NCBI GenBank assembly: GCA_018699155.1
Contig: JABIQA010000167.1
Location: forward strand, 6,699-70,698
Direction of reading: 5' to 3'
DNA: 64,000 bases
From: Chromatiales bacterium
GTDB lineage: Bacteria > Pseudomonadota > Gammaproteobacteria > Steroidobacterales > GCA-2729495
Part shown: positions 33,478-59,916 of the stretch, piece by piece
How positions within the stretch are numbered: the first letter of the stretch is position 1
Layout of the letters: the number at the start of each line of letters is the position of its first letter
Made by a program: the position numbers and the translations under genes
Notes under the pieces: model-generated
Database searches by the model: none
Told to the model about the DNA's origin: nothing
What the model saw: only the letters and a program-made list of their open reading frames with translations

Positions 33478-33491
33478 AGATTGCGAACGAC

Positions 33492-34523
33492 TCAGTCGGT
33501 TCGCAATTCAACGCCCGGCACAGTCGGCGACCAATCTGGCAGCATTACTGCAGAATCAAAGTTAGCGGCAAACTGCTGGATTTTGGCTGTCGAGTCGCTG
33601 AACACTAAGCCAAAATCCCCGCCACCAGCCCCTGATGGTTTATAAACGGCGCCAATAGCCGCCGCACGATGTTCGAAATCAACATGCTCGGCAGAAAAAA
33701 TCCCCACAGCCGCTGCCTCATCCAAACGGTTTAATCCACAACGGTAAGTTGCCAAGAGGTCGAGCAACTCGGGCACGTTTTGTCGCTGCCACACTTCCTG
33801 AAAGCAGCCAGCAATCTGGGTTAACTCGCCAATCAGGCTTAGATACGTCGCCGGATTCGATTCACGCAGACCATCGAGGCGCTGCAACATCTGGCCGGTT
33901 GAAGCAGCATGACCTGTCCATACTGGCAGCATATAAAGCCCCTGTGGCCAGCTCAAAGCTTCGCTTTTCGGCGACCCCATCGCGTCAAGTTGAAATCGGA
34001 TTACGCCACCATGAAGGCTGGTTGCCACATCGATGCCGCTGCCCTTTCCGCCTTGAAACTGACGATGTACGTCATAGCAGAGTTGGTGCAAATCATCGGG
34101 CAATCCAAATAAAGCATGAAGCGCTGCCGTTAAACTCACGCAAACTGCAGCCGAAGAGCCCAGACCAAGCTTCTGCCCGTCGGTGGCAAGATAAAACTCA
34201 CTGCTATCGATTGAAATAACAACATCAGGCAATGCAGCCGGCAACCGCCCGACCAGCTGTTCAAGCAATACACGCAGCAGCTCGCCACGCTCAGCGGGAT
34301 CATTATCAGTAAACTCAAGGCTGCCGTCAGCCTGCCAGATAAACGGGAAGCGCTCGGTATCGCTGGTGGTTACCTCAAGTACGCTCTGGCCAATGGTGGC
34401 ACTTACGCTAACGCGCGAACGCCGGTTAACCGCTAGGGCAATGGCTGAAGCGCCATCAATCACCGCATACTCACCGGTAATTACCAACTTGCCCGGCGCA
34501 CTAACAGCAATAGACGGCATCAA
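33492..34523 (-). CDS. Phosphomevalonate kinase (ERG8/GHMP type)
   Basis: APGKLVITGEYAVIDGA is PMK-type (GEYAV rather than the GEHAV of mevalonate kinase). The GHMP motif KLGLGSSAAV is present. VWTGHAAST and KPSGAGGGDFG correspond to S. pneumoniae PMK GWTKEVAVS and KSSGAGGGDCG. Confidence 0.8.
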   Translation of the reverse strand: MMPSIAVSAPGKLVITGEYAVIDGASAIALAVNRRSRVSVSATIGQSVLEVTTSDTERFPFIWQADGSLEFTDNDPAERGELLRVLLEQLVGRLPAALPDVVISIDSSEFYLATDGQKLGLGSSAAVCVSLTAALHALFGLPDDLHQLCYDVHRQFQGGKGSGIDVATSLHGGVIRFQLDAMGSPKSEALSWPQGLYMLPVWTGHAASTGQMLQRLDGLRESNPATYLSLIGELTQIAGCFQEVWQRQNVPELLDLLATYRCGLNRLDEAAAVGIFSAEHVDFEHRAAAIGAVYKPSGAGGGDFGLVFSDSTAKIQQFAANFDSAVMLPDWSPTVPGVELRTD

Positions 34524-34526
34524 GAC

Positions 34527-35507
34527 TTAAGCCTTTGCAACAGGTTCAACCCAGGCGCCCTGCCCGAGTGTGCAATCCAGCGTCTGCAAAACCCCGGGAA
34601 CACTCTGTAAGCGCTCGCGCACGATTGCGGCAGCTTCGGGCAAACAAACGGCCTTAAGTTGAGGGCCTGCATCTACGGTAAAAAATACCGGAACACCATC
34701 AGCCCGAAGCTTCATTACCGCCTGCATGCATGCCAAAGTTGCGGGTGACCAATACAGCAATGGCGGTTGGGTGCTCATGGCAAGCGCATGCATCTTCAGG
34801 CAGTTGTGCTCGGCAAGATCTGCGAGGCGCATAAAATCCTTATCGGTAAAACACGAGAGCCCGTCGGCAAGATCCTGGGGATGACTGCTAACCCAGCCAT
34901 CGAAGTAAGGGGATGCCGCACGGCTCGATTCCATACCTGCAGTAGAACTGACGGCCTTCTTTTCCACGGAGGTTACCGCCACTATTACTTCCAACGGCCA
35001 GCGTGCCGGCTCGCTTACGCTAGAACATATTGTTTCACCGGGGCTGCTAGCAATATCCAACCACACCCCACCGGCAAATAAAGAGCGCGGTGCAGAACCC
35101 GAACCAAGCCTGGATATTCTTACCAGTTCCTGTGGCGACAGGCTTAAGCCAAGTGCTGCGGCACCGGCTACCGTAAGAGCTGCAAAACCGGAGGCCGACG
35201 AGGCCAACCCGGCGCCGGTCGGAAAGTCATTGGCTGATTCAACATTGGCAAACAAGGAAACGCCGGCGTGTTGGCGCAGTTCATCCAGGCAGCGAACCAT
35301 CCGCAAATCGGCAGCGGCATCAGCCTTACCATCAAGCAGCAATTGGTCCTGCTTGAGCTTTTCGCTGAATTCGATAGTGGTGCGGGTATGCAGACCACCC
35401 AGCGTGACAGATAACGAGCCGGTCGCCGGCAGATTCCTCTCAGTGTCGCTTTTACCCCAATACTTAATTAGAGCAACATTCGGATGCGCTACGGCCATGG
35501 CACGCAT
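34527..35507 (-). CDS. mvaD: Diphosphomevalonate decarboxylase
   Basis: AHPNVALIKYWGKSD...PATGSLSVTL is the canonical MVD N-terminus, and the GHMP motif GAGLASSASGFAAL is present. Confidence 0.85.
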   Translation of the reverse strand: MRAMAVAHPNVALIKYWGKSDTERNLPATGSLSVTLGGLHTRTTIEFSEKLKQDQLLLDGKADAAADLRMVRCLDELRQHAGVSLFANVESANDFPTGAGLASSASGFAALTVAGAAALGLSLSPQELVRISRLGSGSAPRSLFAGGVWLDIASSPGETICSSVSEPARWPLEVIVAVTSVEKKAVSSTAGMESSRAASPYFDGWVSSHPQDLADGLSCFTDKDFMRLADLAEHNCLKMHALAMSTQPPLLYWSPATLACMQAVMKLRADGVPVFFTVDAGPQLKAVCLPEAAAIVRERLQSVPGVLQTLDCTLGQGAWVEPVAKA

Positions 35508-35644
35508 GGATAAATTCCTTCGATAAACTCAGTGCGGGAGATTAAAGCAGGATTATAGCCTTGCATCGGTTAATATTGCCCCGATTCTCATACATAGTGC
35601 CGACTGTCGGCTTCTGAAGCCTTAACGCAAGCAGTTATTGACCA

Positions 35645-36547
35645 ATGAAAAATTCAATGCCATATAAAGATAAAATTAACACTTACACCCTGCGGGTCAA
35701 TGAGATGCTGGAACAGAGCCTGCCAAGTGCTGAGCTACCTCCCCGGCAGCTGCATGAAGCAATGCGCTACTCGGTGCTGGGTGGCGGTAAACGCGTCCGG
35801 CCCCTGCTCGTTTACGCTACCGGCGAAGCGCTCGGTATTGAGTCCTCGATCCTGGATGCGCCTGCCGCAGCCATAGAACTCATGCATGCGTTCTCGCTTG
35901 TGCATGACGATCTACCGGCCATGGATGATGATGACCTGCGGCGTGGCCAGCCAACGGTGCACATTAAATTTGATGAGGCCACAGCTATTTTAGCCGCCGA
36001 TGCCCTGCAACCATTGGCTTTTGAAATCCTTGCCGAAACCTCTGCAATGCGCGCACGTCCGGAAGCACAACGCCGCATTATCAGTGCTCTGGCCCGCGCC
36101 TGTGGCTCAAACGGTATGACCGGCGGTCAATCGATAGACCTTGCCTCTGAGGCCAAATCGTTGAATGCCGCGGAACTCGAACACATGTACCGACTGAAAA
36201 CCGGGCGACTGCTCTGGGTCAGCGTCATGTCCGCAGCCTACTGCGACCCGACCATGACCCCTGCCGGACTGCACTCACTAGAGCGCTTTATCGATGCGCT
36301 TGGTCTAGCCTTCCAGATCCGTGATGACATTCTCGATATAGAGGGCAGCAGCGATGTCATCGGCAAGCCGCAGGGTTCGGATCTGGAGCTCGACAAAGCA
36401 ACTTACCCTGCCCTATTTGGCATGCAGACCGCTAAAGACAGAACCCAGGAGCTACTTGAACTGGCGCTTGCATCCATTGAACATCTGGGAGAACCTGCAG
36501 ACATCTTGCGCTGGATCGGCAATTACATCGTTCAACGTGAAAGCTGA
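35645..36547 (+). CDS. ispA: (2E,6E)-farnesyl diphosphate synthase
   Basis: 300 aa with the first and second aspartate-rich motifs (LVHDDLPAMDDDDLRRG and FQIRDDILD). Confidence 0.9.
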   Translation: MKNSMPYKDKINTYTLRVNEMLEQSLPSAELPPRQLHEAMRYSVLGGGKRVRPLLVYATGEALGIESSILDAPAAAIELMHAFSLVHDDLPAMDDDDLRRGQPTVHIKFDEATAILAADALQPLAFEILAETSAMRARPEAQRRIISALARACGSNGMTGGQSIDLASEAKSLNAAELEHMYRLKTGRLLWVSVMSAAYCDPTMTPAGLHSLERFIDALGLAFQIRDDILDIEGSSDVIGKPQGSDLELDKATYPALFGMQTAKDRTQELLELALASIEHLGEPADILRWIGNYIVQRES

Positions 36548-40925: not shown

Positions 40926-41537
40926 TCAGCCAAGAGTTCGCGCAACCAAGAGAGGTAATGCTGCCAACCTAGCTACGGTATTGGTCTCACTATCTGGCAA
41001 GTTTGCGACACGCACTAAATCCGGCCAGAAGCGCGGATCAGTAGTAAAGCGCGCCATTAATTTGCGCGGGGCCTGTTCAACAAGCTTACGGATTTCAATA
41101 AAACTCATTGCCGCAAGTGAAGCAATTGATTCCGGCCGCAAGCCTAAGAACAAGCGTGCCGCTGCTGTGTCACGACGGACCACCGACCAAATATAAGTTA
41201 GGAGGCCCGCCGCGAACACCTTAACCTCACTTTGCCAAACCGAAGATACCTCTTCGGATATGGCTACGTTTTGCTGGCGTCTCATGTCATGACAACCCAT
41301 GGGGGAATCTGCGCTTGAGGATAGCAGGGGCGCCAGTTCTACCAGCAGGCACGGAACCTCATCAAGGCTGCCGTAAACCGGGAAATCGGGTTCCCGCAGT
41401 GCCTGCAAGGAGTGCTGCGGCATACCGAACAGGCCTTCTATGTCTGGGGCATCCGGGTCGAGCATCAGCCTAATGAATTCTCGATTGAACTCGGCAATTT
41501 CAGGGTACACATCTAAATCAGGGAATTTAGCTCGCAT
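40926..41537 (-). CDS. Hypothetical protein with FlhD-like region(s)
   Basis: The C-terminal half (AAARLFLGLRPESIASLAAMSFIEIRKLVEQAPRKLMARF) aligns by eye with E. coli FlhD ([40 protein letters not shown]). The N-terminal half shows a weaker second copy. The gene is divergent from an flhC-like gene. Confidence 0.45.
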   Translation of the reverse strand: MRAKFPDLDVYPEIAEFNREFIRLMLDPDAPDIEGLFGMPQHSLQALREPDFPVYGSLDEVPCLLVELAPLLSSSADSPMGCHDMRRQQNVAISEEVSSVWQSEVKVFAAGLLTYIWSVVRRDTAAARLFLGLRPESIASLAAMSFIEIRKLVEQAPRKLMARFTTDPRFWPDLVRVANLPDSETNTVARLAALPLLVARTLG

Positions 41538-41565
41538 TCTAGGCGCTCCAGTACCAAAACAGATG

Positions 41566-41640
41566 ATTACTATATATGGGCTTTTTTAACCCTATTAGGA
41601 ACTATATTACTCTATATGGTCGAAAATCCACATATACGGT
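41566..41640. promoter_or_regulatory. Phased direct repeats in the divergent flhD-like/flhC-like control region
   Basis: ATTACTATATATGGG (41566-41580) and ATTACTCTATATGGT (41606-41620) match at 13 of 15 positions and are exactly 40 bp apart. A third core copy, CATATACGGT, ends at 41640, 20 bp further on. Confidence 0.4.
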
Positions 41641-41712
41641 ATATTTAGGTGTATTGGGCAGATTCAGGAAGAGGGCATAGCAATAATAATTACAACATCA
41701 TGAGGGATAACC

Positions 41713-42279
41713 ATGCGCATCACCGACCACCGCTACAACGGCGAAATCGAACGTTTCAACCTGGCTGTCCGAATGATTGGGCACGAGGCTCGTACCGGCA
41801 CTATTCGAAAATGCACAGGCTTCACCGAGGACAGGATCCGCAAAATTTACGGCAGTTATTTTAAATCTAACGCCGACAATGTCATCAAACGGCGGCGCGG
41901 TAAATCACCCACCCAAGTCAGTATTTTTATTAATACCAACAAACACCAATTCGAATCAACGGTGCTGGCATGTTTGTTTGTCATGTGCGGAGTCGTGGCT
42001 TTCGATACTAAAGGCATGCCGTCAACCACCTGCGGGCTTGATAAAGTCGGTGTGGGACAGCGCCTCTGTGAGGCTTTCGAACGTTATCGACAATTGCACC
42101 CGAACCCTAATTTCACATTCGAAAAAGCATGGGGGCTATTCAACGCATTGACTCAAGCCAATGAACTGATCCTGTCCAATTGTGAAAGCTGCAATGGCAA
42201 GTATATTCATGACAGATACGCGCTTAACTATCACTTCTGTGCCAGCTGCGAATTGCTCGATGCGGCTGTGCGGATGTAA
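41713..42279 (+). CDS. FlhC-family transcriptional activator homolog
   Basis: 188 aa. The N-terminal NLAVRMIGHEARTGTI...TEDRIRKIYG corresponds to FlhC LAMELITLGARLQML...SRGRLIKLYK. The central AWGLF corresponds to AWTLV. The Cys4 zinc site C-x2-C-x15-C-x2-C (SNCESCNGKY...HFCASCEL) corresponds to the FlhC C-x2-C-x16-C-x2-C site. Confidence 0.7.
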   Translation: MRITDHRYNGEIERFNLAVRMIGHEARTGTIRKCTGFTEDRIRKIYGSYFKSNADNVIKRRRGKSPTQVSIFINTNKHQFESTVLACLFVMCGVVAFDTKGMPSTTCGLDKVGVGQRLCEAFERYRQLHPNPNFTFEKAWGLFNALTQANELILSNCESCNGKYIHDRYALNYHFCASCELLDAAVRM

Positions 42280-43356: not shown

Positions 43357-43812
43357 ATGCCTACAACGACTGATATACGCGAAAAACGGCGTCAGGCGAT
43401 TCTGGAGATTATTTCGCAGGAATCCGTCGCACGGCAGTCGGTACTCGTGGAAAAGCTTCAGGCAGATGGGTTTCAGGCCACTCAATCAAGTGTGAGTCGT
43501 GATCTGCGCGAAATGAATATCACCAAGAATGGCCAGAATTATGCAGCGCCGCAGAACACCAGCGAGGTCTCACAAGGGCTAATGGATATGCCGGTTGGCT
43601 TTGTCCGGCAACTCGATACCGCTGGAGCCAACATCACTGTCATCAAGACGGCAGTGGGGGCGGCGCAACGGGTTGCTGTTTTTCTGGACCGCAGCGAATG
43701 GCCTGAGATAGTAGGTACTATTTCAGGCGATGACACTATTTTTATTGCCACGCGTGATGCACGCGAGCAAAAAGCTCTGCTCGTCAAACTGCAAAGCAGT
43801 TTGACGATTTAA
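43357..43812 (+). CDS. argR: Arginine repressor (ArgR/AhrC family)
   Basis: 151 aa. It has a winged-helix N-terminus (..QSSVSRDLREM..) and the C-terminal oligomerisation/arginine-binding motif GTISGDDTIFIA. Confidence 0.85.
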   Translation: MPTTTDIREKRRQAILEIISQESVARQSVLVEKLQADGFQATQSSVSRDLREMNITKNGQNYAAPQNTSEVSQGLMDMPVGFVRQLDTAGANITVIKTAVGAAQRVAVFLDRSEWPEIVGTISGDDTIFIATRDAREQKALLVKLQSSLTI

Positions 43813-43831: not shown

Positions 43832-45049
43832 ATGACTACAAGTAATAATTCATCACCCATCCTTCTGGCTTATTCAGGCGGACTCGACACTTCGTTCTGT
43901 GTGCCCTGGCTGAAAGAGACCTATGGTCGCCCAGTGATTACCGCCTGTGTGAATACCGGCGGCCTTGATGCTGCGGCTGCAAAAAGTCTTGAAGACCGGG
44001 CAATGGCACTCGGCGCAACCGAGCATGTGCTTATTGAAGCCCGTGATATTTTCTTTCACCGGGTTTTGAAATACCTGATTGCGGGTAATGTCCGCCGTGG
44101 TCAGCTGTACCCGATGTGCGTGGGCGCCGAACGCGGCATTCAGGCAACCTTGCTGGCCGAGCTCGCTAAAAAGCGCGGCACAACTACTGTTGCACATGGC
44201 TGTACGGCCGCAGGTAATGACCAGGTTCGCTTTGAAGTTGCACTGAAAACCATCAACCCTGATTTGGAAATTATTGCGCCGGTGCGTGACCAATCCTTCG
44301 TCCGCGAAGAACAGGTTACTTACTTGCAAGCAGGCAACTACCCAATGCCGCCATCTGGCGCTAAGTACTCTATTAACCGTGGCTTATGGGGCGTTAGTAT
44401 TGGCGGGAAAGAAACGCTGACGTCAGCAAACACTATCCCTGAAGACGCGTGGGTGCTTTCTTCCGGTGCTTTCGACAAGCCAAATACCCCACAGGAACTG
44501 GTCATCGGTTTTGAGGAAGGGGTGCCTGTAACAATCAATGGGGAAAAGCTTACACCGGTTAATCTGATCGAGAAGCTGGAGACTATTGCAGGTGCTTATG
44601 GCATCGGTCGTGGCATTCACCTCGGTGATACTGTGCTGGGCACCAAGGGCCGTGTAGCTTTCGAGGCGCCTGCAGCAGAAGTTCTTCTCACAGCGCATCG
44701 TGAACTTGAAAAGCTGGTACTCAGTTCTTTGCAGATGAGCATTAAAGAAGGTGTCTCGCTCAACTATGGCAACTTCGTGCATGAAGGTAAGCAGCTTGAT
44801 CCGGTATGCCGTGACATCGAAGCATTGTTAGAGTCTTCACAACAACGCGTCACCGGCACCGTCAAATTAAAACTGCGCCCCGGCAACTTGTTCGTGGAGG
44901 GCGTTGAATCAGCTTACTCACTAATGGCGGCAACCAAAGGCGTGTATGGCGAGGCTGCTGGCGAATGGACTCCGCGCGATGCCTTGGGGTACTCAACCGT
45001 ATTATCACTTTCCGGAATGCTACAAACTCGGGCAGGACAAAAAAAATGA
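43832..45049 (+). CDS. argG: Argininosuccinate synthase
   Basis: 405 aa. It has the ATP pyrophosphatase motif AYSGGLDTS and the sequences GCTAAGNDQVRFE and NRGLWG. Confidence 0.95.
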   Translation: MTTSNNSSPILLAYSGGLDTSFCVPWLKETYGRPVITACVNTGGLDAAAAKSLEDRAMALGATEHVLIEARDIFFHRVLKYLIAGNVRRGQLYPMCVGAERGIQATLLAELAKKRGTTTVAHGCTAAGNDQVRFEVALKTINPDLEIIAPVRDQSFVREEQVTYLQAGNYPMPPSGAKYSINRGLWGVSIGGKETLTSANTIPEDAWVLSSGAFDKPNTPQELVIGFEEGVPVTINGEKLTPVNLIEKLETIAGAYGIGRGIHLGDTVLGTKGRVAFEAPAAEVLLTAHRELEKLVLSSLQMSIKEGVSLNYGNFVHEGKQLDPVCRDIEALLESSQQRVTGTVKLKLRPGNLFVEGVESAYSLMAATKGVYGEAAGEWTPRDALGYSTVLSLSGMLQTRAGQKK

Positions 45050-46098
45050 AAACTGTACTCGCAGACAAAATCGGATCGGTTGCGCTTCACAAAAGCATCA
45101 GCCAGGAACTCCACCTGAGCCCGGAAATACCGTGCGAGGAAGGCGTGCTTATCGCCGTTGAAGTGCTAAACAATAAAGCCACTTACAACAAACTCGAACT
45201 GATCAGCGGGCGTATGGCACAGCTGAAGCGCGGCGACATCATCGTGGGTGCTCTCGGGCACCGAAATGCGTTGTTTGGCTACTCCGGTCACTTGCCAGAA
45301 ACTGTAAAACCCGGCGACATTTTGCAGCTATTGAATATTGGTGGCGTGATTGGCGTTTGCGATTCTATTAATGCCAATTTCGGCCAACCTTTTGAGGGCA
45401 AGGTACTAGGCGCCGTGCTCGAGTTTCCGCACTTGGGCGAACGCATCGGCGTTCCTGCCCGTGTTGGTGCGGAAACGCTCAATGGATTACCTCCACTCGA
45501 TACGAAGGGCATACCAATAGTTGCGCTTGCCGGAACCTGTATGGATTCCGGTAAAACAGCAGCCGCATGCGCAATTGTCAGCCGCCTGCGTCACCATGGT
45601 TTAACCATTGATGCCTTCAAGGCGACCGGTGTCGCTTTACGTCGCGACATTCTCGCGATGGAAGATGCTGGTGCACGCAATACAGTTATTTTCAGTGATT
45701 TTGGTGTGGTTGCCAGCTCGGATGAAACGGGACCTGCAGTCACCCGCACGATGCTGAATAAGCTGTGCGCAAAAAAACCCGATGTTGTGGTATTTGAACT
45801 TGGCGATGGCCTACTCGGCTCTTATGGAGTTCAGGCGATTCTGTCGGACAAAGAAATTAAGAAGGCTCTGTCCTGCATTATACTCTGCGCCAATGACCCT
45901 GTAGCGGCATGGGGGGGCGTCAAGCTCATGCAGCAAGATTACAACTTGGACACCAGTGTTGTTACAGGCCCCGCTACGGATAACCAGGTCGGTAAAAAAT
46001 TGATCAACAACCGTTTAAATGTGCCGGCATGGAATGCGCTGACCGACAGCACTGAGCTCGGCGATGAGGTCATCAACATTCTTAAATTGGGTAAATAG
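45046..46098 (+). CDS. Uncharacterised 350-aa protein with a BioD/CobQ-like P-loop, embedded in the arginine operon
   Basis: The ATG at 45046 overlaps the argG TGA (ATGA). The upstream part of the tracked ORF lies inside argG and is discarded. The motif GT-x4-GKT (LAGTCMDSGKTAAA, residues 163-171) has the same spacing as BioD GTDTEVGKT. I do not recognise the N-terminal 150 aa. argC follows 45 nt later. Confidence 0.8.
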   Translation: MKTVLADKIGSVALHKSISQELHLSPEIPCEEGVLIAVEVLNNKATYNKLELISGRMAQLKRGDIIVGALGHRNALFGYSGHLPETVKPGDILQLLNIGGVIGVCDSINANFGQPFEGKVLGAVLEFPHLGERIGVPARVGAETLNGLPPLDTKGIPIVALAGTCMDSGKTAAACAIVSRLRHHGLTIDAFKATGVALRRDILAMEDAGARNTVIFSDFGVVASSDETGPAVTRTMLNKLCAKKPDVVVFELGDGLLGSYGVQAILSDKEIKKALSCIILCANDPVAAWGGVKLMQQDYNLDTSVVTGPATDNQVGKKLINNRLNVPAWNALTDSTELGDEVINILKLGK

Positions 46099-46143: not shown

Positions 46144-47190
46144 ATGAGTGATACAGTTAAAACAGTGGTCATTGGCAGCTCCGGTTATGTCGGCGGAGAA
46201 CTGCTGCGTCTGATAGCCGGGCACCCGCAACTGGAGCTCGTAGCTGCAGTATCTGAGTCAAATTCCGGAACACCCATCAATAGTGTGTTTCCACATTTGC
46301 ATAATGCGCTTGGTGAGCAATGTTTTATTGGTCCGGCTGAATTGCAACAACATTTGCACGGCAAAATAGCAATATTTTCGGCCGCACCGCATGGGGCAAG
46401 CGCAGGCATGATTGCCGATGTTCTGGCACAGGCCAAGAACGCCGATGTAAATATTGTCGATGTGTCTGCGGACTTCCGCTTCGCCGATAGCGCCAGTTAC
46501 TCTGCTGTTTATGGCGAACACGGCGCTCCGGATTTGCTCGATCAGTTTGTCTGTGGACTGCCGGAACACATGCCAAACACCGAGCACCCGAACGTGGGCC
46601 ATCCCGGATGTTTTGCTACCGCCATGCTGCTTGGGGCTGTGCCACTGCTGCAGTTGGACCTAATCGAGCCCGAACTGAATGCCTTTGGCATTACCGGCAG
46701 CACCGGTTCCGGTCAGGCGCCATCTACTGGCACACATCATCCGGTACGCAACTCGAATCTGTATGCCTATAAGCCACTTGAACATCGTCATGCGCCTGAG
46801 GTTGTTGCTATTTGCAAAGCCCTAACCGGCAAAGACAGCACGCTCAACTTTATCCCTCACTCAGGACCGTTTGCGCGAGGAATTCACATGACGATTCAGG
46901 CTAAATTGAAACAACCCCGGACGACCGAAGACCTGGTTGCAGAGTTCACTGACTTTTATAACCATAACGAGTTTGTCACTGTGGTGAGCGGTCAGCCAAA
47001 GCTGAAAGATGTTACGTGCAGCAATTATTCACAGATCGGCCTTGCCACTAACGGGGATTCAGTGGTGGTATTTACGGTCATCGACAATCTAATTAAAGGT
47101 GCCGCTGGCGGTGCAGTCCAATGGATGAATCGCAAACTGGGCTTTGATGAGACACTGGGTCTGACAACACCCGGAAGTGGCTGGGGCTGA
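46144..47190 (+). CDS. argC: N-acyl-gamma-glutamyl-phosphate reductase
   Basis: The start is trimmed to the ATG at 46144 (MSDTVKTVVIGSSGYVGGELLRL). The catalytic Cys motif GHPGCFAT and the C-terminal DNLIKGAAG are present. Confidence 0.9.
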   Translation: MSDTVKTVVIGSSGYVGGELLRLIAGHPQLELVAAVSESNSGTPINSVFPHLHNALGEQCFIGPAELQQHLHGKIAIFSAAPHGASAGMIADVLAQAKNADVNIVDVSADFRFADSASYSAVYGEHGAPDLLDQFVCGLPEHMPNTEHPNVGHPGCFATAMLLGAVPLLQLDLIEPELNAFGITGSTGSGQAPSTGTHHPVRNSNLYAYKPLEHRHAPEVVAICKALTGKDSTLNFIPHSGPFARGIHMTIQAKLKQPRTTEDLVAEFTDFYNHNEFVTVVSGQPKLKDVTCSNYSQIGLATNGDSVVVFTVIDNLIKGAAGGAVQWMNRKLGFDETLGLTTPGSGWG

Positions 47191-47194
47191 GAAC

Positions 47195-48358
47195 ATGGGC
47201 AACATTAAAAATATGGCGCAGCAGGCCGAAGCCGAACACCTATTGCAGGTCTATGCGCAGTGGAGTTTTGAGCCGGTGTCGGCCAAAGGTGTGCATATTC
47301 AGTGTAAAGATGTTGAATTGCTTGACCTCTATGGCGGTCATGCTGTCGCTGCACTTGGCTACAGTCACCCCGCCTTGGTTAAAGCGCTGGAACATCAGGC
47401 CAACACTCTGTTCTTTCAGAGCAATGCTGTCGCGCTTGATGTACGCGCAGAGGCTGCGCGCAAGCTTGCGGCTTTTGCCCCTGAATCCATGAATCATGTG
47501 TTTCTGGTTAATAGTGGTGCTGAAGCCAATGAGAATGCACTGCGCATTGCTATTAAACACACCAATCGCGGCAAGGTGGTGGCTATCGAACATGGCTTCC
47601 ACGGACGTACTGCAGCGGCAGGTGCCTGCACCTGGGGCGCAAAAGATAACTGGTATGCCTTCCCGAACACTCCATTTGCGGTCGATTTTCTGCCAAGAGA
47701 TGAGGTTAGTGCTATCGATTCTTGCATCGATAAAGATACTGCAGCCGTAATTCTGGAACCCATACAAGGTGTCGCTGGTGCCTACGACCTAAGTACTGAC
47801 TTTGTTCAAGGCATTGCTGAACGCTGCAAAGCCGTTGGCGCACTATTGATTGTGGATGAGGTACAAACCGGTATTGGTCGCTGCGGCAGTGCCTTTGCAA
47901 TTGAGCTGTATGACGTTACGCCGGACATCATCACCACAGCCAAAGCGCTGGGTGGCGGGTTTCCCGTTGGCGCAGTAATTGTGGCGGAGCATCTTAAAGA
48001 CGCTGTTCACAATGGCGACCTTGGCAGCACCTTCGGTGGTGGCCCACTCGCCTGCGCCATGATTTCTGCGGTGATTGATATCATCAACAAGGAAAACCTA
48101 ATAGCCAACGTGTGCGAGCAAGCGGCATTCTTGCGCGCCAATCTGCCAATAGGGCCGGTGGTTGCCATTCAGGGCAAAGGTTTTCTTACCGGATTAATCT
48201 GCGACCGGCCAGCAAAAGAAGTGGCCGCGGAACTAATGAAAAGAAACATACTGGTAGGCAGCAGTTCTGACCCTAAAGTGGTCCGTCTATTGCCGCCATT
48301 GACGCTGCAACGCAAGCATATACAACAACTGCTCGATGCTTTGGTAGATATTAAATAG
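47195..48358 (+). CDS. argD: N-acyl-ornithine aminotransferase (class III PLP aminotransferase)
   Basis: It has NSGAEANE, DEVQTGIGRCG and the PLP-lysine context ITTAKALGGGFP. The start was chosen at the ATG at 47195; the ATG at 47213 is also possible. Confidence 0.85.
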   Translation: MGNIKNMAQQAEAEHLLQVYAQWSFEPVSAKGVHIQCKDVELLDLYGGHAVAALGYSHPALVKALEHQANTLFFQSNAVALDVRAEAARKLAAFAPESMNHVFLVNSGAEANENALRIAIKHTNRGKVVAIEHGFHGRTAAAGACTWGAKDNWYAFPNTPFAVDFLPRDEVSAIDSCIDKDTAAVILEPIQGVAGAYDLSTDFVQGIAERCKAVGALLIVDEVQTGIGRCGSAFAIELYDVTPDIITTAKALGGGFPVGAVIVAEHLKDAVHNGDLGSTFGGGPLACAMISAVIDIINKENLIANVCEQAAFLRANLPIGPVVAIQGKGFLTGLICDRPAKEVAAELMKRNILVGSSSDPKVVRLLPPLTLQRKHIQQLLDALVDIK

Positions 48359-48385
48359 CCTGACTCAATCCACAAGGTAATGATT

Positions 48386-49390
48386 ATGAAAGAGTTTCAA
48401 GATCTGGCCCTGATTACTCCGGAAGAAGTAGAAAACCTGCTGTCTCTCGCTCGGCGCTTAGAAACGCACCCAGAACCACGGGCTTTGGAAGGAAAGATTC
48501 TGGCGCTGCTGTTCCTGAACCCTTCGCTGCGCACACTGGCTTCGTTCCAGGCGGCAATGGGTCGATTGGGAGGCAACTCGTTTGTCATCTCACCGGACAT
48601 GTCTATTCACGGATTAGAAACACGTCGCGGTATCGTGATGGATGGACAAGCAGCCGAACATATTCGGGAAGCTATTCCCGTTATCGCGTCATACGCCGAT
48701 GCACTTGGTATCCGGGCATTCGCTGAACGCGAAGAACTTGACCATGATCTGGCCGACAAAGATTACATGGCATTCCGCGAACTGGTGAAGATACCGCTCA
48801 TCAACATGGAATCTGCTATCAATCATCCCTGCCAGAGTCTGGCGGACTGGAAAACAATGGACGATCTGGAACTGCCCCGCGCGGGCGGCAAGTTTGTGTT
48901 GAGTTGGGCCTATCACCCACGGGCATTACCACTGGCAGTACCCTCTGCAACAGTGCATATGGCGGCGATGCGCGGTATGGACGTTACCGTGTTGCGGCCA
49001 GAAGGCTTTGAACTGCCTGAAAGTATCATGCAAAAAGCCCGCGATGCGGCGCAGTTCTCCGGAGGCTCAGTAACTGAGACAGATGATAAAGCAGCGGCAC
49101 TGGAAGGTGCGCATGTGATCTATGCAAAATCATGGGCCTCAACAAAACATTATGGCCACCTGCCTAACGATGAAAAGGCGCGGGAAGGATTAAAACATTG
49201 GTGCATTAACAACAGTTGGTTTGACACCACGCAGAAAGATGCTCGCTTTATGCATTGCCTGCCGGCAAGACGCGGCATAGTTGTGGCCGATGAAGTTCTG
49301 GATGGGCCACGCAGTGTGGTTATTCCGGAAGCACGTAACAGAATGTATGCACAAATGGCTGTGCTGCATCAAATGCTAGGAACTAAGTAA
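48386..49390 (+). CDS. argF': N-acetyl/N-succinyl-L-ornithine carbamoyltransferase (argF' type, not a canonical OTCase)
   Basis: There is close by-eye similarity to B. fragilis N-succinylornithine transcarbamylase as I recall it: RGIVMDGQAAEHIREAIPVIASYADALGIRAFA corresponds to RGVIMDGDKPEHLLEAIPVMGCYCDIIGVRSFA, and MHCLPARRGIVVADEVLDGPRSVVIPEARNR corresponds to MHCLPVRRNMIVTDDVIESPQSIVIPEAANR. It lacks the OTCase DxxxSMG ornithine loop. The second ATG (48386) is preferred because of SD spacing; the ATG at 48380 is possible. Confidence 0.85.
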   Translation: MKEFQDLALITPEEVENLLSLARRLETHPEPRALEGKILALLFLNPSLRTLASFQAAMGRLGGNSFVISPDMSIHGLETRRGIVMDGQAAEHIREAIPVIASYADALGIRAFAEREELDHDLADKDYMAFRELVKIPLINMESAINHPCQSLADWKTMDDLELPRAGGKFVLSWAYHPRALPLAVPSATVHMAAMRGMDVTVLRPEGFELPESIMQKARDAAQFSGGSVTETDDKAAALEGAHVIYAKSWASTKHYGHLPNDEKAREGLKHWCINNSWFDTTQKDARFMHCLPARRGIVVADEVLDGPRSVVIPEARNRMYAQMAVLHQMLGTK

Positions 49391-49393
49391 CTC

Positions 49394-50320
49394 ATGATTA
49401 ACAACACTAAAACCCGGGACATCGTAGTAGCGGCGCTCACTCACGCGACGCCGTACATACGCATGTACAAAAATAAGGTCTTCGTTATTAAGGCCGGCGG
49501 TGAAGTGTTTGAGGACATTGAAACCACCAAGACACTGGTTGAGCAAATAGCAATACTTCACCAGATAGGCATTCGCGTGGTCATTGTTCATGGCGGCGGC
49601 CCACAGTCGACCCGATTAGCCGACACCCTAGGCATTGAAACCAACATGGTCGAGGGGCGTCGGGTAACAGATGCAAAGACGCTTAAAGTGTCGGCCATGG
49701 TTCTAAATGGTGAAATCAACACTCAGATTCTGGCGGCTTGCCGGAGCCTCAGTGTGCCTGCCGTGGGGATTAGTGGCGTTGATTGTGGGCTCATCAAGGC
49801 CAGCAAGCGCCCCCCTGTAAAAATAGACGATGAGACGGTGGACTACGGCTTCGTCGGCAATATTGATTCGGTTGATATCAGTGTGTTGCAGACGCAACTG
49901 GACAGCGGGTTGGTACCGGTCATTAGCCCGTTATCGGCAGATGACGATGGCACACTGCTGAATATCAATGCCGATACCGTTGCAGCGGAAATCGCCTCTG
50001 CATTGGGTGCGGAAAAACTCATTCTTGCAACCGGCGCACCGGGCATTCTTGAAAACGTCGATGACCCTAGTTCGATTATTTCCTATGTCGATATCGAGGG
50101 CTTACAGGTACTGCGGGACAACGGCTCGTTAAAAGCCGGTATGTTACCAAAGGCCACTGCTATCGAATCGGCGATTCACGGCGGTGTGTCGCGTGTGCAT
50201 ATGATCTCGTACAAGATCCCCAACAGCCTACTGCTTGAAATCTTCACTAATGAGGGTACGGGCACACTTATCGTTAAACACATTGAAGCACTCTCCGCGG
50301 CAGAACAGGGGCAGGACTAA
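49394..50320 (+). CDS. argB: N-acyl-glutamate kinase (kinase only, no GNAT domain)
   Basis: 308 aa with amino-acid-kinase motifs (VIKAGGE, VVIVHGGGPQ, NINADT). Confidence 0.9.
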   Translation: MINNTKTRDIVVAALTHATPYIRMYKNKVFVIKAGGEVFEDIETTKTLVEQIAILHQIGIRVVIVHGGGPQSTRLADTLGIETNMVEGRRVTDAKTLKVSAMVLNGEINTQILAACRSLSVPAVGISGVDCGLIKASKRPPVKIDDETVDYGFVGNIDSVDISVLQTQLDSGLVPVISPLSADDDGTLLNINADTVAAEIASALGAEKLILATGAPGILENVDDPSSIISYVDIEGLQVLRDNGSLKAGMLPKATAIESAIHGGVSRVHMISYKIPNSLLLEIFTNEGTGTLIVKHIEALSAAEQGQD

Positions 50321-51513
50321 TGTCATCAAACACACGCTTGTGGGATAAGGGTCAGCCATTGGATGAGCGCATCCTGCGTTACACCGCGGGCGAAGACCAC
50401 ATACTTGATGCTCGCCTGATTCAATACGATGTGCGCGCTTCTATTGCTCACGCTGGCATGCTGCATGCACAGGGGCTGATAAGCGAAGCCGATTATACCG
50501 CCATTGAAACCGGTCTGAGCACGCTAGCTGAATCTCATGCTGCAGGAGAGTGGTGCATCTCGCTAGAAGATGAGGATGTGCACACTGCGTTAGAAGGTCG
50601 GCTCACCGCCGCCATAGGTGATGCTGGAAAACGAATTCACTTAGGGCGCTCGCGAAACGATCAGGTGTTAGTTGCACTTCGTTTGTATTTGCGCGATGCC
50701 GCACATCACCTCGCCGCAGCCGCACAAACAACCGTTACCGCGTTAGAAGACCTGGCGGGCACGCAAGGGCGTATTGCCCTGCCCGGCTACACCCATATGC
50801 AGCAGGGCATGCCCAGTTCTGTGGCCCTATGGGCAGGTGCTTATATCACTGAGTTGCAGGACGATATCGCGGGCATTCAACGCACATTGCTGCGGATCAA
50901 CCTCAGCCCTTTAGGCAGTGCAGCGGGTTATGGCACACCCAATATTCCGGTAGACCGGCAGTTTACCGCCGATGCTTTAGGCTTCGACCAAGTGCACGAA
51001 CCCGTCACAGCCGTACAGCTCTCACGCGGTAAAGCGGAAGCCTCATTAGTGTTTGAACTGTCCTTACTTATGCAGGATATGGGACGCCTCGCATCCGACC
51101 TGCTGTTGTTTTATACGCAGGAGTTTGCGTTTATCAGCCTGCCCGACAACATAACAACCGGCTCATCAATTATGCCGCAGAAGCGTAACCCCGACGTACT
51201 AGAACTTGTGCGTGCGGCGACTGCAACCATGCAAGGCAGCCTAGTGGAAATAATGAGCATCACCGCTAAATTACCTTCAGGCTATCAGCGCGACCTACAA
51301 CGCATTAAATCGCCTCTGTTTAAGGCAATTGATCTGGCCGAAGATTCAGCGCTGATCATGGCAAATCTTGTCAACGGCCTGAGCTTCAATGCTGAGAACA
51401 TCACACTGGACCCATCAGTTCATGCCGCTGGAGACGCCAACAAGATGGTTGTTGAAGAAGGCATTAGCTTCCGTGATGCCTATCGCCGGGTTAGCGAGGC
51501 TTATAAAAAATGA
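50320..51513 (+). CDS. argH: Argininosuccinate lyase (short form, 397 aa)
   Basis: It has the fumarase/lyase signature GSSIMPQKRNPD and HLGRSRNDQV. It ends right after ..GISFRDAYRRVSEAYKK, so it lacks about 60 C-terminal residues found in E. coli ArgH. It overlaps argB by 1 nt (TAATG). Confidence 0.9.
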   Translation: MSSNTRLWDKGQPLDERILRYTAGEDHILDARLIQYDVRASIAHAGMLHAQGLISEADYTAIETGLSTLAESHAAGEWCISLEDEDVHTALEGRLTAAIGDAGKRIHLGRSRNDQVLVALRLYLRDAAHHLAAAAQTTVTALEDLAGTQGRIALPGYTHMQQGMPSSVALWAGAYITELQDDIAGIQRTLLRINLSPLGSAAGYGTPNIPVDRQFTADALGFDQVHEPVTAVQLSRGKAEASLVFELSLLMQDMGRLASDLLLFYTQEFAFISLPDNITTGSSIMPQKRNPDVLELVRAATATMQGSLVEIMSITAKLPSGYQRDLQRIKSPLFKAIDLAEDSALIMANLVNGLSFNAENITLDPSVHAAGDANKMVVEEGISFRDAYRRVSEAYKK

Positions 51514-51728
51514 TTGGCATACGCCCGAGAGGGTTGCTTTTAGGCATAATTTTTAGCGCTAGCCTCATGGCCTGTGGTCAGTCTGGCGCCTTGTATTTGC
51601 CTGGTTCTGAGGCAGTTAACTCGGCAAGCTCCGTGCCGAATGCAGAACCTGTTAATGACGAACAAACCGAGCTCACAGAGCTTACCGAATCAACAATACC
51701 GACTTCTAATACCGAAGTAACCGAATGA
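51510..51728 (+). CDS. lptM: Small lipoprotein LptM/YifL-like
   Basis: 72 aa. The lipobox and following motif SLMACGQSGALYLPG match the YifL CG.KGPLY.P signature. ATGA overlaps occur at both ends (with argH and polA). Confidence 0.7.
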   Translation: MIGIRPRGLLLGIIFSASLMACGQSGALYLPGSEAVNSASSVPNAEPVNDEQTELTELTESTIPTSNTEVTE

Positions 51729-59364: not shown

Positions 59365-59393
59365 AGCCCACCTCAGAGAGTTCGAATTAGCGA

Positions 59394-59777: not shown

Positions 59778-59916
59778 ACCACTGATCCCGCAGAAATAGT
59801 CACAAAGTTGTATGCCACAAATAATAGCACCCCTGTCGCATTAAGGCGGCAGGGGTGCATGCTTTTACGGCAAAAATCCGCAGAATGGCTTCACAACTGC
59901 CCGAAGCCAGTCATGC

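What the first reader, a model, noticed from the sequence alone, without database searches (positions are those of the whole stretch)
45046..46098. Orphan P-loop protein translationally coupled inside the arginine biosynthesis operon: candidate for a missing pathway enzyme
Seen in the sequence:
- A 350-aa ORF has an ATG that overlaps the argG stop codon (ATGA), and argC follows 45 nt later.
- The gene therefore lies inside a tight argR-argG-X-argC-argD-argF'-argB-argH cluster.
- The cluster encodes every step from acyl-glutamate kinase to argininosuccinate lyase.
- It encodes no acyl-glutamate synthase (ArgA, ArgJ or a GNAT). ArgB here is 308 aa and kinase-only.
- It encodes no ArgE-type deacylase.
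- X carries a GT-x4-GKT P-loop (LAGTCMDSGKT) with the spacing of dethiobiotin synthetase and CobQ-type ATP-dependent amide-forming enzymes. This is followed by FELGDGLLGS and ILCAND segments.
- I cannot place the N-terminal 150 aa in any family.

Inference:
- X may be a non-orthologous replacement for the first step. It could form N-acyl-glutamate either as an ATP-dependent ligase or as a CoA-dependent transferase.
- Less likely, X is the acyl-citrulline deacylase.

I recall, without certainty, that the similarly sized DUF1611 family has a related P-loop half. I also recall that one member (DgcN) was reported as a glutamate N-acetyltransferase, which would make the first idea chemically plausible.
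Basis: partly seen in the sequence, partly recalled or inferred. Interest (0 to 1): 0.8.

Follow-up and report, generated by a model that had tools for sequence, protein, structure and literature searches.

The report
Predicted alternative first enzyme for arginine
An unannotated P-loop protein embedded in the arginine-synthesis operon belongs to a large family that a recent preprint already predicted, without testing it, to replace the missing first enzyme of the pathway; the genomic evidence holds up here, but the chemistry it uses is still open.

Summary
A 350-aa ORF (45046-46098) starts in the argG stop codon (ATGA) and sits in argR-argG-X-argC-argD-argF'-argB-argH. No GNAT, ArgA, ArgJ or M20/ArgE gene lies in the 64-kb window. 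X has no Pfam or NCBIfam family but more than 7,000 database relatives.

X is 61% identical to Steroidobacter denitrificans A0A127FCT3. [quoted passage not shown] The central idea is therefore published.

New support:
- X lies directly upstream of argC wherever the downstream gene could be identified, in six gene orders, down to 31% identity.
- A real X-ArgB-type kinase fusion exists.
- ArgF' residue 92 is Ala or Pro, never Glu, in 113 linked loci, which indicates the succinyl route.

New cautions:
- The claimed DgcN/DUF1611 link is no better than generic P-loop similarity.
- The N-domain is all-beta and unplaced.
- Four of the five family-invariant residues map onto the P-loop, K37 and E115 of dethiobiotin synthetase, so an ATP-dependent succinate-glutamate ligase is as plausible as an acyl-CoA transferase.
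- One lineage (L175) carries X together with a short-NAGS-type GNAT and an ArgE-type M20 in one operon, which weakens the simple replacement logic.

No biochemistry exists.

The parts
43357..43812 (+). argR, arginine repressor, first gene of the cluster
   Evidence: Pfam Arg_repressor and Arg_repressor_C. TIGR01529, E 4.6e-33.
43832..45049 (+). argG, argininosuccinate synthase. Its stop codon overlaps the start codon of X.
   Evidence: TIGR00032, 311.9 bits against a cutoff of 268. ATGA overlap at 45046-45049.
45046..46098 (+). X, 350 aa. [quoted passage not shown]
   Evidence: 61% identity over 349 aa to P0318 (A0A127FCT3), E 1e-166. No Pfam or NCBIfam family. More than 7,000 relatives. AF2 model with pLDDT 96.5.
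45046..45480 (+). N-terminal all-beta domain of X (about residues 1-145). It carries the invariant motif G71-x-R73-x-A75..G78..G81..P84, and E51.
   Evidence: DSSP on the model shows only strands in residues 2-126. No Foldseek hit covers it, with TMq no higher than 0.43. Invariant residues.
45517..46095 (+). C-terminal P-loop alpha/beta domain of X (about residues 158-350), with a dethiobiotin-synthetase / CTP-synthase-amidoligase-like (SIMIBI) fold.
   Evidence: Foldseek against PDB: DTBS 1dts E 2.6e-6, HypB, SRP GTPases. Foldseek against BFVD: CTP synthase is the top hit, E 9.8e-5. hhalign against E. coli BioD: E 3.7e-5. Profile against PDB sequences: best hit is Mtb DTBS 3FGN, E 8.6e-4.
45532..45558 (+). 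Deviant Walker A loop G163-T-C-M-D-S-G169-K170-T171 (GT-x4-GKT).
   Evidence: Read from the sequence. Aligns to BioD G8-T-D-T-E-V-G-K15-T16. G169 and K170 are invariant in 57 diverse members.
45619..45621 (+). K192, invariant. Aligned to DTBS K37.
   Evidence: hhalign. Invariance.
45796..45798 (+). E251 (in FELGDG), invariant. Aligned to DTBS E115 at the end of the Walker-B-like strand.
   Evidence: hhalign. Invariance.
46144..47190 (+). [quoted passage not shown] It is the gene directly downstream of X in every locus where the downstream gene could be identified.
   Evidence: TIGR01850, 308.6 bits. X-argC adjacency seen.
47177..48358 (+). argD, N-acyl-ornithine aminotransferase.
   Evidence: Aminotran_3, E 2.3e-89. 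TIGR00707 is the best NCBIfam match.
48380..49390 (+). argF', N-acyl-ornithine carbamoyltransferase with the succinyl-type signature Ala92 (codon 48653-48655).
   Evidence: NF003384, 333 bits. The best PDB hit is the E92A mutant 3L02, and the aligned residue is Ala. Over 113 linked loci the residue is Ala in 110, Pro in 3 and Glu in none.
49394..50320 (+). argB, N-acyl-glutamate kinase. Kinase domain only, with a roughly 25-aa N-terminal extension.
   Evidence: TIGR00761, 218.8 bits. Alignment with E. coli ArgB and ArgA.
50320..51513 (+). argH, argininosuccinate lyase. Short form of 397 aa without the ASL_C2 tail.
   Evidence: TIGR00838, 326 bits, matching only model positions 12-389 of 455. 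Downstream reading frames checked.

Best explanation
X is the first-step enzyme of an arginine pathway that runs through N-succinylated intermediates. It makes N-succinyl-L-glutamate, which ArgB, ArgC, ArgD and ArgF' (succinyl type, Ala92) then process.

X is a two-domain protein. The unplaced all-beta N-domain carries an invariant Arg/Glu-containing motif and probably holds the dicarboxylate or glutamate substrate. The dethiobiotin-synthetase-like P-loop domain has its Lys-Thr P-loop, second Lys (K192) and acidic strand-end residue (E251) intact.

Shown here:
- orthology to the published predicted family
- linkage to arg genes that survives operon rearrangement
- a fusion to an ArgB-type kinase
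- the succinyl signature in ArgF'
- conservation of the DTBS-type phosphate and Mg-site positions

Inferred:
- the reaction itself
- how the acyl group is activated. Either succinyl-CoA binds through the P-loop (as GapMind proposes by analogy with DgcN), or succinate is phosphorylated by ATP and attacked by the glutamate alpha-amine (as in DTBS, CobQ and CTP-synthase amidoligases). I rate these two about equally likely.
For: - Orthology: X is 61% identical (E 1e-166) to A0A127FCT3, which occupies the same operon slot in S. denitrificans. GapMind reports that S. denitrificans grows in minimal medium, has no recognisable ArgA, and that the family never co-occurs with Pseudomonas-type ArgA.
- Linkage: the same gene order holds wherever the contig is long enough among the 80 fetched species-level loci. 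Members at 31-44% identity lie directly upstream of argC in five other arrangements, and members at 28-32% on short contigs lie directly after an OTCase gene or argH. L176 carries only argR-X-argC-argD-argF'-argB, the acylated-intermediate module.
- Fusion: P0221 is an X domain followed by an AA_kinase domain whose best NCBIfam match is argB (E 7e-37). It occurs on 4 contigs from 4 samples, and the kinase half keeps K8, R66, D162 and K217 in E. coli ArgB numbering.
- No competitor nearby: no GNAT, ArgA, ArgJ or M20 gene in the window, and no homolog of the L175 GNAT, the L175/L171 M20s or E. coli ArgE in about 165 close loci.
- Succinyl route: ArgF' residue 92 is Ala in 110 loci, Pro in 3 and never Glu.
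- Intact active-site-like core: G169, K170, K192 and E251 are four of the five residues invariant across 57 diverse members, and they align to BioD G14, K15, K37 and E115.
Against: - No member of the family has been assayed. GapMind lists it only as a prediction.
- In L175 an X homolog with an intact motif set shares one operon with a 167-aa GNAT and an ArgE/DapE-type M20. The GNAT's only PDB relatives are the 174-182-residue amino-acid acetyltransferase chains 5YGE and 5YO2, and it matches the ArgH(A) GNAT domain. That operon would be complete without X.
- The structural analogy to DgcN is not specific.
- The same genomes reportedly also lack ArgE, so a gap-filling argument alone cannot say which gap X fills.
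- A fungal homolog lies outside any arg context.
- Absence of ArgA, ArgJ or a short NAGS elsewhere in this organism's genome could not be checked from a 64-kb window.
Confidence: 0.55

Rival explanations
1. X produces N-succinyl-glutamate by recycling the acyl group. It would act as an ArgJ-like transacylase, moving succinyl from N-succinyl-citrulline (or N-succinyl-ornithine) to glutamate. That would fill the ArgA and ArgE gaps at the same time, with a GNAT needed only for priming in lineages that keep one.
For: - GapMind reports that both ArgA and ArgE are missing in S. denitrificans.
- No M20 or ArgE gene in the window or close loci.
- The L175 operon has X plus a short-NAGS GNAT, which resembles organisms that pair a monofunctional ArgJ with a priming NAGS.
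- ArgB here has the N-terminal extension. From general knowledge, that extension is typical of arginine-sensitive kinases in acyl-recycling organisms.
- The fusion with an ArgB-type kinase is equally compatible with this reading.
Against: - A P-loop nucleotide-binding fold with intact Lys/Thr/Glu phosphate and Mg positions has no obvious role in an energy-neutral transacylation.
- No similarity to the ArgJ (Ntn) fold.
- L175 and L171 still keep an M20 deacylase beside X.
- DapE, not examined here, could cover the deacylase step.
Confidence: 0.1
2. X is not a catalyst of a missing step. It is an NTP-dependent accessory or regulatory factor of the early pathway, for example one that assembles or controls an ArgB/ArgC complex. 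The true first enzyme would be an unrecognised GNAT encoded elsewhere in the genome.
For: - The closest folds include non-enzymatic SIMIBI NTPases: SRP GTPases, HypB, MeaB-like proteins and MobB.
- X co-exists with a complete ArgA(GNAT)-to-ArgH gene set in L175.
- Short NAGS GNATs are hard to recognise, and GapMind reports its co-occurrence test only against a Pseudomonas-type ArgA.
- The invariant neighbour is argC.
Against: - No G4-type (NKxD) guanine motif is evident.
- The P-loop has the GT-x4-GK[TS] form of DTBS-type enzymes, and K192 aligns with the DTBS-specific second lysine K37.
- The N-domain has an invariant Arg/Glu-bearing motif that looks like a small-molecule site.
- The fusion partner is a kinase domain that keeps K8, R66, D162 and K217.
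Confidence: 0.2
3. X is the missing deacylase, an N-succinyl-citrulline desuccinylase (ArgE replacement).
For: GapMind reports that S. denitrificans lacks the expected ArgE. No ArgE gene in the window or close loci.
Against: - Amide hydrolysis has no precedent in this fold.
- X co-occurs with ArgE/DapE-type M20 genes in L171 and L175.
- The fusion to an ArgB-type kinase and the adjacency to argC tie X to the start of the pathway, not its end.
Confidence: 0.04

Closest known systems
[quoted passage not shown]
   Same: Same protein family and clear orthology: 61% identity over the full length, the same slot between argG and argC, the same downstream genes through polA, and Ala at ArgF' residue 92.
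   Different: Nothing essential differs. The window protein comes from an uncultured marine gammaproteobacterium; its exact sequence is MBT5891670.1, labelled 'Chromatiales bacterium'. The published function is a prediction only.
DgcN / DUF1611 (PF07755 plus PF17396; PDB 7XRJ, 2OBN), a D-glutamate N-acetyltransferase
   Same: A P-loop alpha/beta domain with a GT-x4-GK-type loop. The reported substrate is a glutamate that becomes N-acylated (as cited).
   Different: - Only about 40 residues around the P-loop match PF07755, at sub-threshold scores and no better than MobB or CbiA.
- The Rossmann-like DUF1611_N domain is replaced by an all-beta domain.
- 2OBN ranks only 36th in Foldseek, and 7XRJ is not in the top 50.
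- No DUF1611 chain is found by the family profile among PDB sequences at E up to 10.
- DgcN acts on the D-enantiomer in a catabolic route.
Dethiobiotin synthetase (BioD) and the related amidoligase domains of CobB/CobQ and CTP synthase
   Same: - Best sequence-profile hit in PDB (3FGN, E 8.6e-4). hhalign against E. coli BioD gives E 3.7e-5. Foldseek TMt is 0.51-0.57 to DTBS chains, and CTP synthase is the top hit in BFVD.
- Same GT-x4-GKT loop. K192 aligns to K37 and E251 to E115.
- From general knowledge, these enzymes phosphorylate a carboxyl or carbonyl oxygen with ATP and let an amine attack it, which is the chemistry needed to join succinate to glutamate.
   Different: No family model is reached: bioD TIGR00347 gives a best E of 1e-4 in 11 of 57 members. 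X has an extra 145-residue beta domain. No ATP use has been shown.
Canonical N-acetylglutamate synthases: ArgA (AAK plus GNAT), bifunctional NAGS/K, short NAGS (M. tuberculosis Rv2747, ArgH(A) fusions), and ArgJ
   Same: The proposed product class and position in the pathway. The X-kinase fusion P0221 mirrors the kinase-plus-synthase architecture of ArgA and NAGS/K.
   Different: No GNAT or Ntn fold. The domain order is reversed in the fusion. The acyl group is predicted to be succinyl.
The Bacteroides-type arginine pathway through N-succinyl-ornithine transcarbamylase (PDB 2FG6, 2G7M)
   Same: ArgF' carries a small residue (Ala or Pro) at the position that sets succinyl specificity. The operon begins with argR.
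   Different: From my own recollection, not tested here, Bacteroides clusters carry a GNAT at the start of the operon. Here X takes that role or place.

Membership tests
GapMind-predicted alternative N-succinylglutamate synthase family (A0A127FCT3) | Sequence similarity of at least 30% of the maximal bit score to A0A127FCT3 | tested here: met
   457 bits, 61% identity over 349 of 350 residues, E 1e-166. P0318 is confirmed as UniRef100_A0A127FCT3.
GapMind-predicted alternative N-succinylglutamate synthase family (A0A127FCT3) | Encoded inside an arginine-biosynthesis gene cluster | tested here: met
   argR-argG-X-argC-argD-argF'-argB-argH. The same cluster is present in S. denitrificans.
GapMind-predicted alternative N-succinylglutamate synthase family (A0A127FCT3) | The neighbouring ArgF' has A, P, S or V (not E) at residue 92 | tested here: met
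   Ala92. The best PDB hit is the E92A mutant 3L02.
GapMind-predicted alternative N-succinylglutamate synthase family (A0A127FCT3) | No canonical ArgA in the same genome | not testable with these tools
   Only 64 kb of the genome is available. There is none in the window. Whole genomes could not be scanned.
GapMind-predicted alternative N-succinylglutamate synthase family (A0A127FCT3) | N-succinyl-L-glutamate synthase activity | not testable with these tools
   Never measured for any member.
DUF1611 / DgcN | PF07755 (DUF1611_C) at or above the gathering score | tested here: not met
   X gives no hit at E up to 10. 31 of 57 members give sub-threshold hits, best E 1.3e-5. Where ranges were printed, the hits cover only about 40 residues at the P-loop.
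DUF1611 / DgcN | Rossmann-like N-terminal domain PF17396 (DUF1611_N) | tested here: not met
   Not among the 25 most-matched Pfam families. The model's N-domain is all-beta, at pLDDT above 90.
DUF1611 / DgcN | DUF1611/DgcN structures are the nearest structural neighbours | tested here: not met
   2OBN_B ranks 36th (E 2.2e-5, TMq 0.40), behind SRP GTPases, DTBS and HypB. 7XRJ is not in the top 50. No DUF1611 chain appears in the profile-versus-PDB search at E up to 10.
Dethiobiotin-synthetase-like ATP-dependent amidoligases (BioD, CobB/CobQ, CTP synthase N-domain) | GT-x4-GK[TS] P-loop, a second Lys (BioD K37) and an acidic strand-end residue (BioD E115) | tested here: met
   The hhalign alignment gives K170=K15, T171=T16, K192=K37 and E251=E115. 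All are invariant or nearly so in 57 diverse members.
Dethiobiotin-synthetase-like ATP-dependent amidoligases (BioD, CobB/CobQ, CTP synthase N-domain) | A family model (TIGR00347 bioD, PF13500 AAA_26, CobQ models) at or above threshold | tested here: not met
   Only sub-threshold hits: bioD in 11 of 57 members (best E 1.1e-4), AAA_26 in 10 of 57.
Dethiobiotin-synthetase-like ATP-dependent amidoligases (BioD, CobB/CobQ, CTP synthase N-domain) | ATP-dependent formation of a C-N bond | not testable with these tools
   Requires an enzyme assay.
Canonical NAGS (ArgA, short NAGS GNAT, ArgJ) | GNAT (PF00583) or ArgJ (Ntn) catalytic domain | tested here: not met
   X gives no such Pfam or NCBIfam hit.
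ArgE/DapE M20 deacylases | Peptidase_M20 catalytic domain | tested here: not met
   No hit for X. Genuine M20 genes lie beside X in L171 and L175.

The most novel reading that the evidence does not exclude
X founds a new enzyme class: an ATP-dependent succinate:L-glutamate ligase. It would be built from a dethiobiotin-synthetase-like P-loop domain plus a novel beta domain, and would start arginine biosynthesis from free succinate rather than from an acyl-CoA. After deacylation of N-succinyl-citrulline, the released succinate would be re-attached at the cost of one ATP. The family's spread to a fungus, next to a citrate synthase gene, would then hint at a wider set of dicarboxylate-amino-acid ligases.
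Probability: 0.25. Interest if true: 0.8.

Novelty: new member of a known kind. Interest (0 to 1): 0.5.

Why it matters
The first step of arginine biosynthesis is unassigned in a large, environmentally abundant group: Woeseiaceae, Steroidobacteraceae and related uncultured Gammaproteobacteria of marine sediments and soils. At least 583 stretches of a one-genome-per-species collection encode a relative of this gene.

Automated annotation leaves the gene as 'hypothetical', or mislabels it 'DUF1611', and calls the neighbouring transcarbamylase acetyl-specific. Metabolic models of these organisms therefore wrongly predict arginine auxotrophy.

If the family is confirmed, it would be a further, structurally unrelated solution for N-acyl-glutamate synthesis. 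If it uses ATP and free succinate, it would also be new chemistry for this step.

The idea itself is no longer new, because GapMind 2026 published it. This analysis adds three things:
- independent support, from the kinase fusion and from linkage that survives operon rearrangement
- a correction, because the DgcN analogy is weak and the DTBS-type residues are the conserved ones
- a counter-example, the L175 operon, that any final model must explain

Tried and rejected
- **Family scans on X alone.** Pfam and NCBIfam gave only MobB noise.
- **First AF2 model.** Built from 27 close homologs, it had a poor N-domain (pLDDT 76) and was replaced by a model from 57 diverse sequences (pLDDT 96.5).
- **Foldseek.** The PDB library was searched twice and BFVD once. 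No hit covers the N-terminal beta domain, so its fold stays unplaced.
- **DgcN paper (Yu et al. 2023).** I tried to read it for its mechanism, but it is not held in the library. A search for DgcN plus acetyl-CoA found nothing useful. DgcN's co-substrate is therefore quoted only through GapMind.
- **Direct profile comparison with a DUF1611 alignment.** Not possible, because I had no DUF1611 sequence. I used Pfam and NCBIfam votes and a PDB sequence search instead.
- **Metagenome scan with the diverse profile.** It failed for lack of a conserved stretch. The repeat run returned only relatives of at least 60% identity. Distant contexts had to come from the capped per-protein look-ups.
- **P0176, an apparent X-ArgC fusion.** The ArgC part scores only 41.8 bits and the X part matches in two pieces. 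I treated it as a probable gene-call artefact and did not use it.
- **LysW/ArgX carrier-protein route.** Rejected: ArgB and ArgC match the acetylglutamate-type models far better, and no LysW-like gene is present.
- **X as a second kinase or as a carbamate-activating enzyme.** Considered and dropped, because ArgB and ArgF' are present in the clusters that hold the full module.


Full report
**1. Observation**

The ORF is exactly as described.
- It runs from 45046 to 46098 on the + strand and encodes 350 aa. Its ATG shares bases with the argG stop codon (ATGA at 45046-45049). The argC ATG at 46144 follows 45 nt after the X stop.
- Pfam and NCBIfam identify the neighbours as argR, argG, argC, argD, an N-acyl-ornithine carbamoyltransferase (argF'), a kinase-only 308-aa argB, and argH. 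The genes are separated by -14 to +45 nt.
- Pfam scans of 50 of the window's 65 ORFs of at least 140 aa found no GNAT, ArgA, ArgJ or M20/ArgE-type gene; X has no family, one ORF was not scanned and 13 overlap larger genes. tblastn with E. coli ArgE found nothing in the window, and E. coli ArgA hit only ArgB.
- The P-loop LAGTCMDSGKT and the FELGDG and ILCAND segments are present.
- X itself matches no Pfam family at E up to 0.01. Its only matches are MobB noise: Pfam at E 0.012 and NCBIfam at E 0.0024.

**2. X is a real, large and unnamed family**

- A database search gave more than 7,000 relatives. The best 120 are 67-87% identical, all labelled 'hypothetical' and none with a Pfam domain.
- A scan of one genome per species found 583 stretches that encode a relative, in Woeseiaceae, Steroidobacteraceae and uncultured 'Chromatiales' or Gammaproteobacteria MAGs.
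- An exhaustive profile search found 1,606 clusters at 50% identity with E up to 0.001.
- The exact sequence of X is already deposited as MBT5891670.1, 'hypothetical protein [Chromatiales bacterium]'.

**3. The idea is already in the literature**

[quoted passage not shown] Its arguments are:
- The organism grows in minimal medium but has no recognisable ArgA.
- Homologs are almost always found in arg operons.
- They never co-occur with Pseudomonas-type ArgA.
- Foldseek gives a weak hit to the D-glutamate acetyltransferase DgcN (PDB 7XRJ, rmsd 5.6 A, E 1.4e-7).
- The neighbouring ArgF' proteins have A, P, S or V at residue 92.

The preprint did not test the prediction experimentally.

I confirmed that P0318 is A0A127FCT3. 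X is 61% identical to it over 349 residues (E 1e-166). The S. denitrificans locus has the same argR-argG-X-argC-argD-argF'-argB-argH order, continuing to polA. X is therefore an ortholog of the published candidate.

**4. Independent tests that support a role at the start of the pathway**

(a) Linkage survives rearrangement.
- Among the 80 species-level loci fetched, the gene order is the same wherever the contig is long enough.
- Distant members keep arg neighbours in other arrangements:

| Locus | Identity to X | Gene order |
|---|---|---|
| L176 | 44% | argR-X-argC-argD-argF'-argB |
| L177 | 42% | argF'-argB-argH-argG-X-argC |
| L178 | 39% | argR-X-argC |
| L175 | about 37% | argG-X-argC-argD-argF'-argB-M20-GNAT-argH |
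| L171 | 31% | argG-argH-X-argC-argD-argF'-argB |
| L088 | 32% | X directly after argH (short contig) |
| L086, L087 | 28% | X directly after an OTCase gene (short contigs) |

- The constant feature is X directly upstream of argC, wherever the downstream gene could be identified.
- L176 contains only the acylated-intermediate module plus X.

(b) A fusion exists.
- P0221 (626 aa) joins an X domain to an amino-acid-kinase domain whose best NCBIfam match is argB (E 7e-37).
- The identical gene occurs on four contigs from four samples, next to a genuine arginase.
- The kinase half keeps K8, R66, D162 and K217 in E. coli ArgB numbering. E. coli ArgA's kinase-like domain has M, E and F at positions 8, 162 and 217.
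- A synthase-kinase fusion mirrors ArgA and NAGS/K. It argues that the product of X feeds ArgB.

(c) The acyl group is succinyl.
- The window's ArgF' matches the E92A mutant of the Xanthomonas enzyme best, and carries Ala at that position.
- Across 113 X-linked loci the residue is Ala in 110, Pro in 3 and never Glu. It is Thr in L175.
- GapMind, citing Shi et al. 2007, reports that E92A/P/S/V switches specificity to N-succinyl-ornithine. The NCBIfam name 'N-acetylornithine carbamoyltransferase' is therefore probably wrong here in its acyl group.

**5. Structure, and what the fold really resembles**

- With 57 diverse sequences, AlphaFold2 gives pLDDT 96.5 and pTM 0.92. The model has an all-beta N-domain (about residues 1-145) and a P-loop alpha/beta domain (about residues 158-350).
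- Foldseek against PDB matches only the C-domain, with TMq no higher than 0.41. The top hits are SRP GTPases (E 4e-7), dethiobiotin synthetase (1DTS, E 2.6e-6) and HypB. The DUF1611 structure 2OBN ranks 36th (E 2.2e-5), and 7XRJ is not among the top 50.
- Against viral models the top hit is CTP synthase. From general knowledge, its amidoligase domain is DTBS-like.
- The family profile's best PDB sequence hit is M. tuberculosis DTBS (E 8.6e-4). No DUF1611 chain appears even at E up to 10.
- Sub-threshold votes over the 57 members are MobB 38, CbiA 32, DUF1611_C 31 and AAA_26 10 in Pfam, and mobB, CobB, bioD and CobQ in NCBIfam.
- The DgcN analogy therefore carries little weight. X is not a DUF1611 protein, although UniRef labels A0A127FCT3 as one.

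What is conserved is informative.
- The five residues invariant in 57 diverse members are P84, G169, K170, K192 and E251.
- hhalign against E. coli BioD (E 3.7e-5) aligns K170/T171 with K15/T16, K192 with K37, and E251 with E115.
- From established knowledge of DTBS, those are the P-loop, the second lysine at the phosphoryl-transfer site, and a Mg-site carboxylate.
- From general knowledge, DTBS, CobB/CobQ and CTP synthase all use ATP to phosphorylate a carboxyl or carbonyl oxygen, which an amine then attacks. The same chemistry would join succinate to the glutamate amine.
- An ATP-dependent ligase is therefore at least as consistent with the sequence as an acyl-CoA transferase. From general biochemistry, succinyl-CoA and succinate plus ATP are energetically equivalent through succinyl-CoA synthetase.
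- This step is inference; no tool here can distinguish the two mechanisms.

**6. A counter-example**

- In L175 the X homolog keeps the full invariant motif set. It shares one operon with an ArgE/DapE-type M20 and a 167-aa GNAT that abuts argH.
- That GNAT's only PDB relatives are the 174-182-residue 'Amino-acid acetyltransferase' chains 5YGE, 5YO2 and 6ADD (E 2.4e-9). From my recollection these are M. tuberculosis Rv2747.
- It also matches the GNAT part of the ArgH(A) fusion model, the short 'amino-acid N-acetyltransferase' model and the ArgA GNAT domain.
- That operon would be complete without X.
- Three readings are possible: a transitional state of non-orthologous displacement, two routes to the same product, or a role for X other than ArgA. 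As far as I read it, GapMind's co-occurrence test covered only Pseudomonas-type ArgA and would not see this.
- L171 also keeps an M20 beside X. This argues against X being the deacylase.

**7. Verdict**

- Most likely (about 0.55), X makes N-succinyl-L-glutamate. How the acyl group is activated is unresolved.
- Rivals are an NTP-dependent accessory or regulatory factor (about 0.2), an ArgJ-like succinyl transacylase filling both gaps (about 0.1), and a deacylase (about 0.04).
Its interpretation is partly supported, and it has already been published as a prediction.
- Novelty: a new member of a known, predicted and still untested kind.
- Interest is moderate, at 0.5. The gene family is abundant and unannotated and the experiment is simple, but the central idea is not new.

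**8. Limits**

- Only 64 kb of this genome was available, so absence of ArgA, ArgJ, short NAGS or ArgE elsewhere in it is unknown.
- The DgcN paper could not be read.
- The N-domain fold is unplaced.
- Distant contexts are few because the look-ups were capped.

Noticed in passing
L175:8790-17975 (metagenome contig ORJL010219931.1): The operon argG-X-argC-argD-argF'-argB-M20-GNAT-argH places an X homolog together with an ArgE/DapE-type deacylase and a short-NAGS-type GNAT. The GNAT's PDB relatives are 5YGE and 5YO2, and it matches the ArgH(A) GNAT domain. This is the only case seen in which X is not the sole ArgA candidate.
   Followed up: partly
L082:8001-9881 (also L083, L084, L085): A 626-aa natural fusion of an X domain with an ArgB-like amino-acid-kinase domain. 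It occurs on four contigs from four JGI samples, divergent from a genuine arginase gene. The kinase half keeps K8, R66, D162 and K217 (E. coli ArgB numbering) but has G11D and N158A.
   Followed up: partly
window 48380-49390 (codon 48653-48655): NCBIfam names ArgF' an N-acetylornithine carbamoyltransferase, above its cutoff. The protein has Ala at specificity residue 92, the succinyl-type signature, so automated annotation probably assigns the wrong acyl group.
   Followed up: yes
window 50320-51513: ArgH is only 397 aa and lacks the C-terminal ASL_C2 region; it matches model positions 12-389 of 455. The short form is shared by L001 (396 aa) and S. denitrificans (401 aa). More distant X-carrying operons have 438-455-aa ArgH. 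This looks like a lineage trait rather than a frameshift.
   Followed up: partly
window about 51510-51728: A 72-codon ORF encodes a lipoprotein-like peptide (MIGIRPRGLLLGIIFSASLMACGQSG...). It overlaps the argH stop and the polA start. S. denitrificans has an LptM-like gene in the same interval.
   Followed up: no
L174:10001-11056 (Aspergillus avenaceus ML742132.1): An intronless 351-aa family member (31% identical to X, invariant residues intact) lies in a fungal genome among genuine fungal genes. It is next to a citrate synthase, a Zn2Cys6 regulator and an MFS transporter. This may be a horizontal transfer into a dicarboxylate- or tricarboxylate-related cluster.
   Followed up: no
window 32002-36547: Mevalonate-pathway genes lie together in a gammaproteobacterial window: HMG-CoA synthase, a GHMP kinase, diphosphomevalonate decarboxylase and a polyprenyl synthase.
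   Followed up: no
window 58318-62380: A minus-strand group of a NodU/CmcH-type carbamoyltransferase (60530-62380), an SxtJ-like protein (60069-60524) and a DUF6687 protein (58318-59547). Function unknown.
   Followed up: no
window 16595-25522: A fused 1,222-aa hydantoinase A/B (5-oxoprolinase-type) gene at 16595-20263 and glutamate-cysteine ligase at 23957-25522. Both are gamma-glutamyl-cycle genes and lie near each other.
   Followed up: no
window 40926-42279: A divergent FlhD-like / FlhC-like gene pair sits just upstream of nudC and the arg cluster. The same pair is in the same place in L001.
   Followed up: no
literature: PMC12363236; UniRef100_A0A127FCT3: UniRef labels the Steroidobacter ortholog 'DUF1611 domain-containing'. 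A Mariana Trench survey lists Woeseiales as major carriers of dgcN. If that survey's dgcN set captured this family, the D-glutamate catabolism signal in Woeseiales may be an annotation artefact.
   Followed up: no
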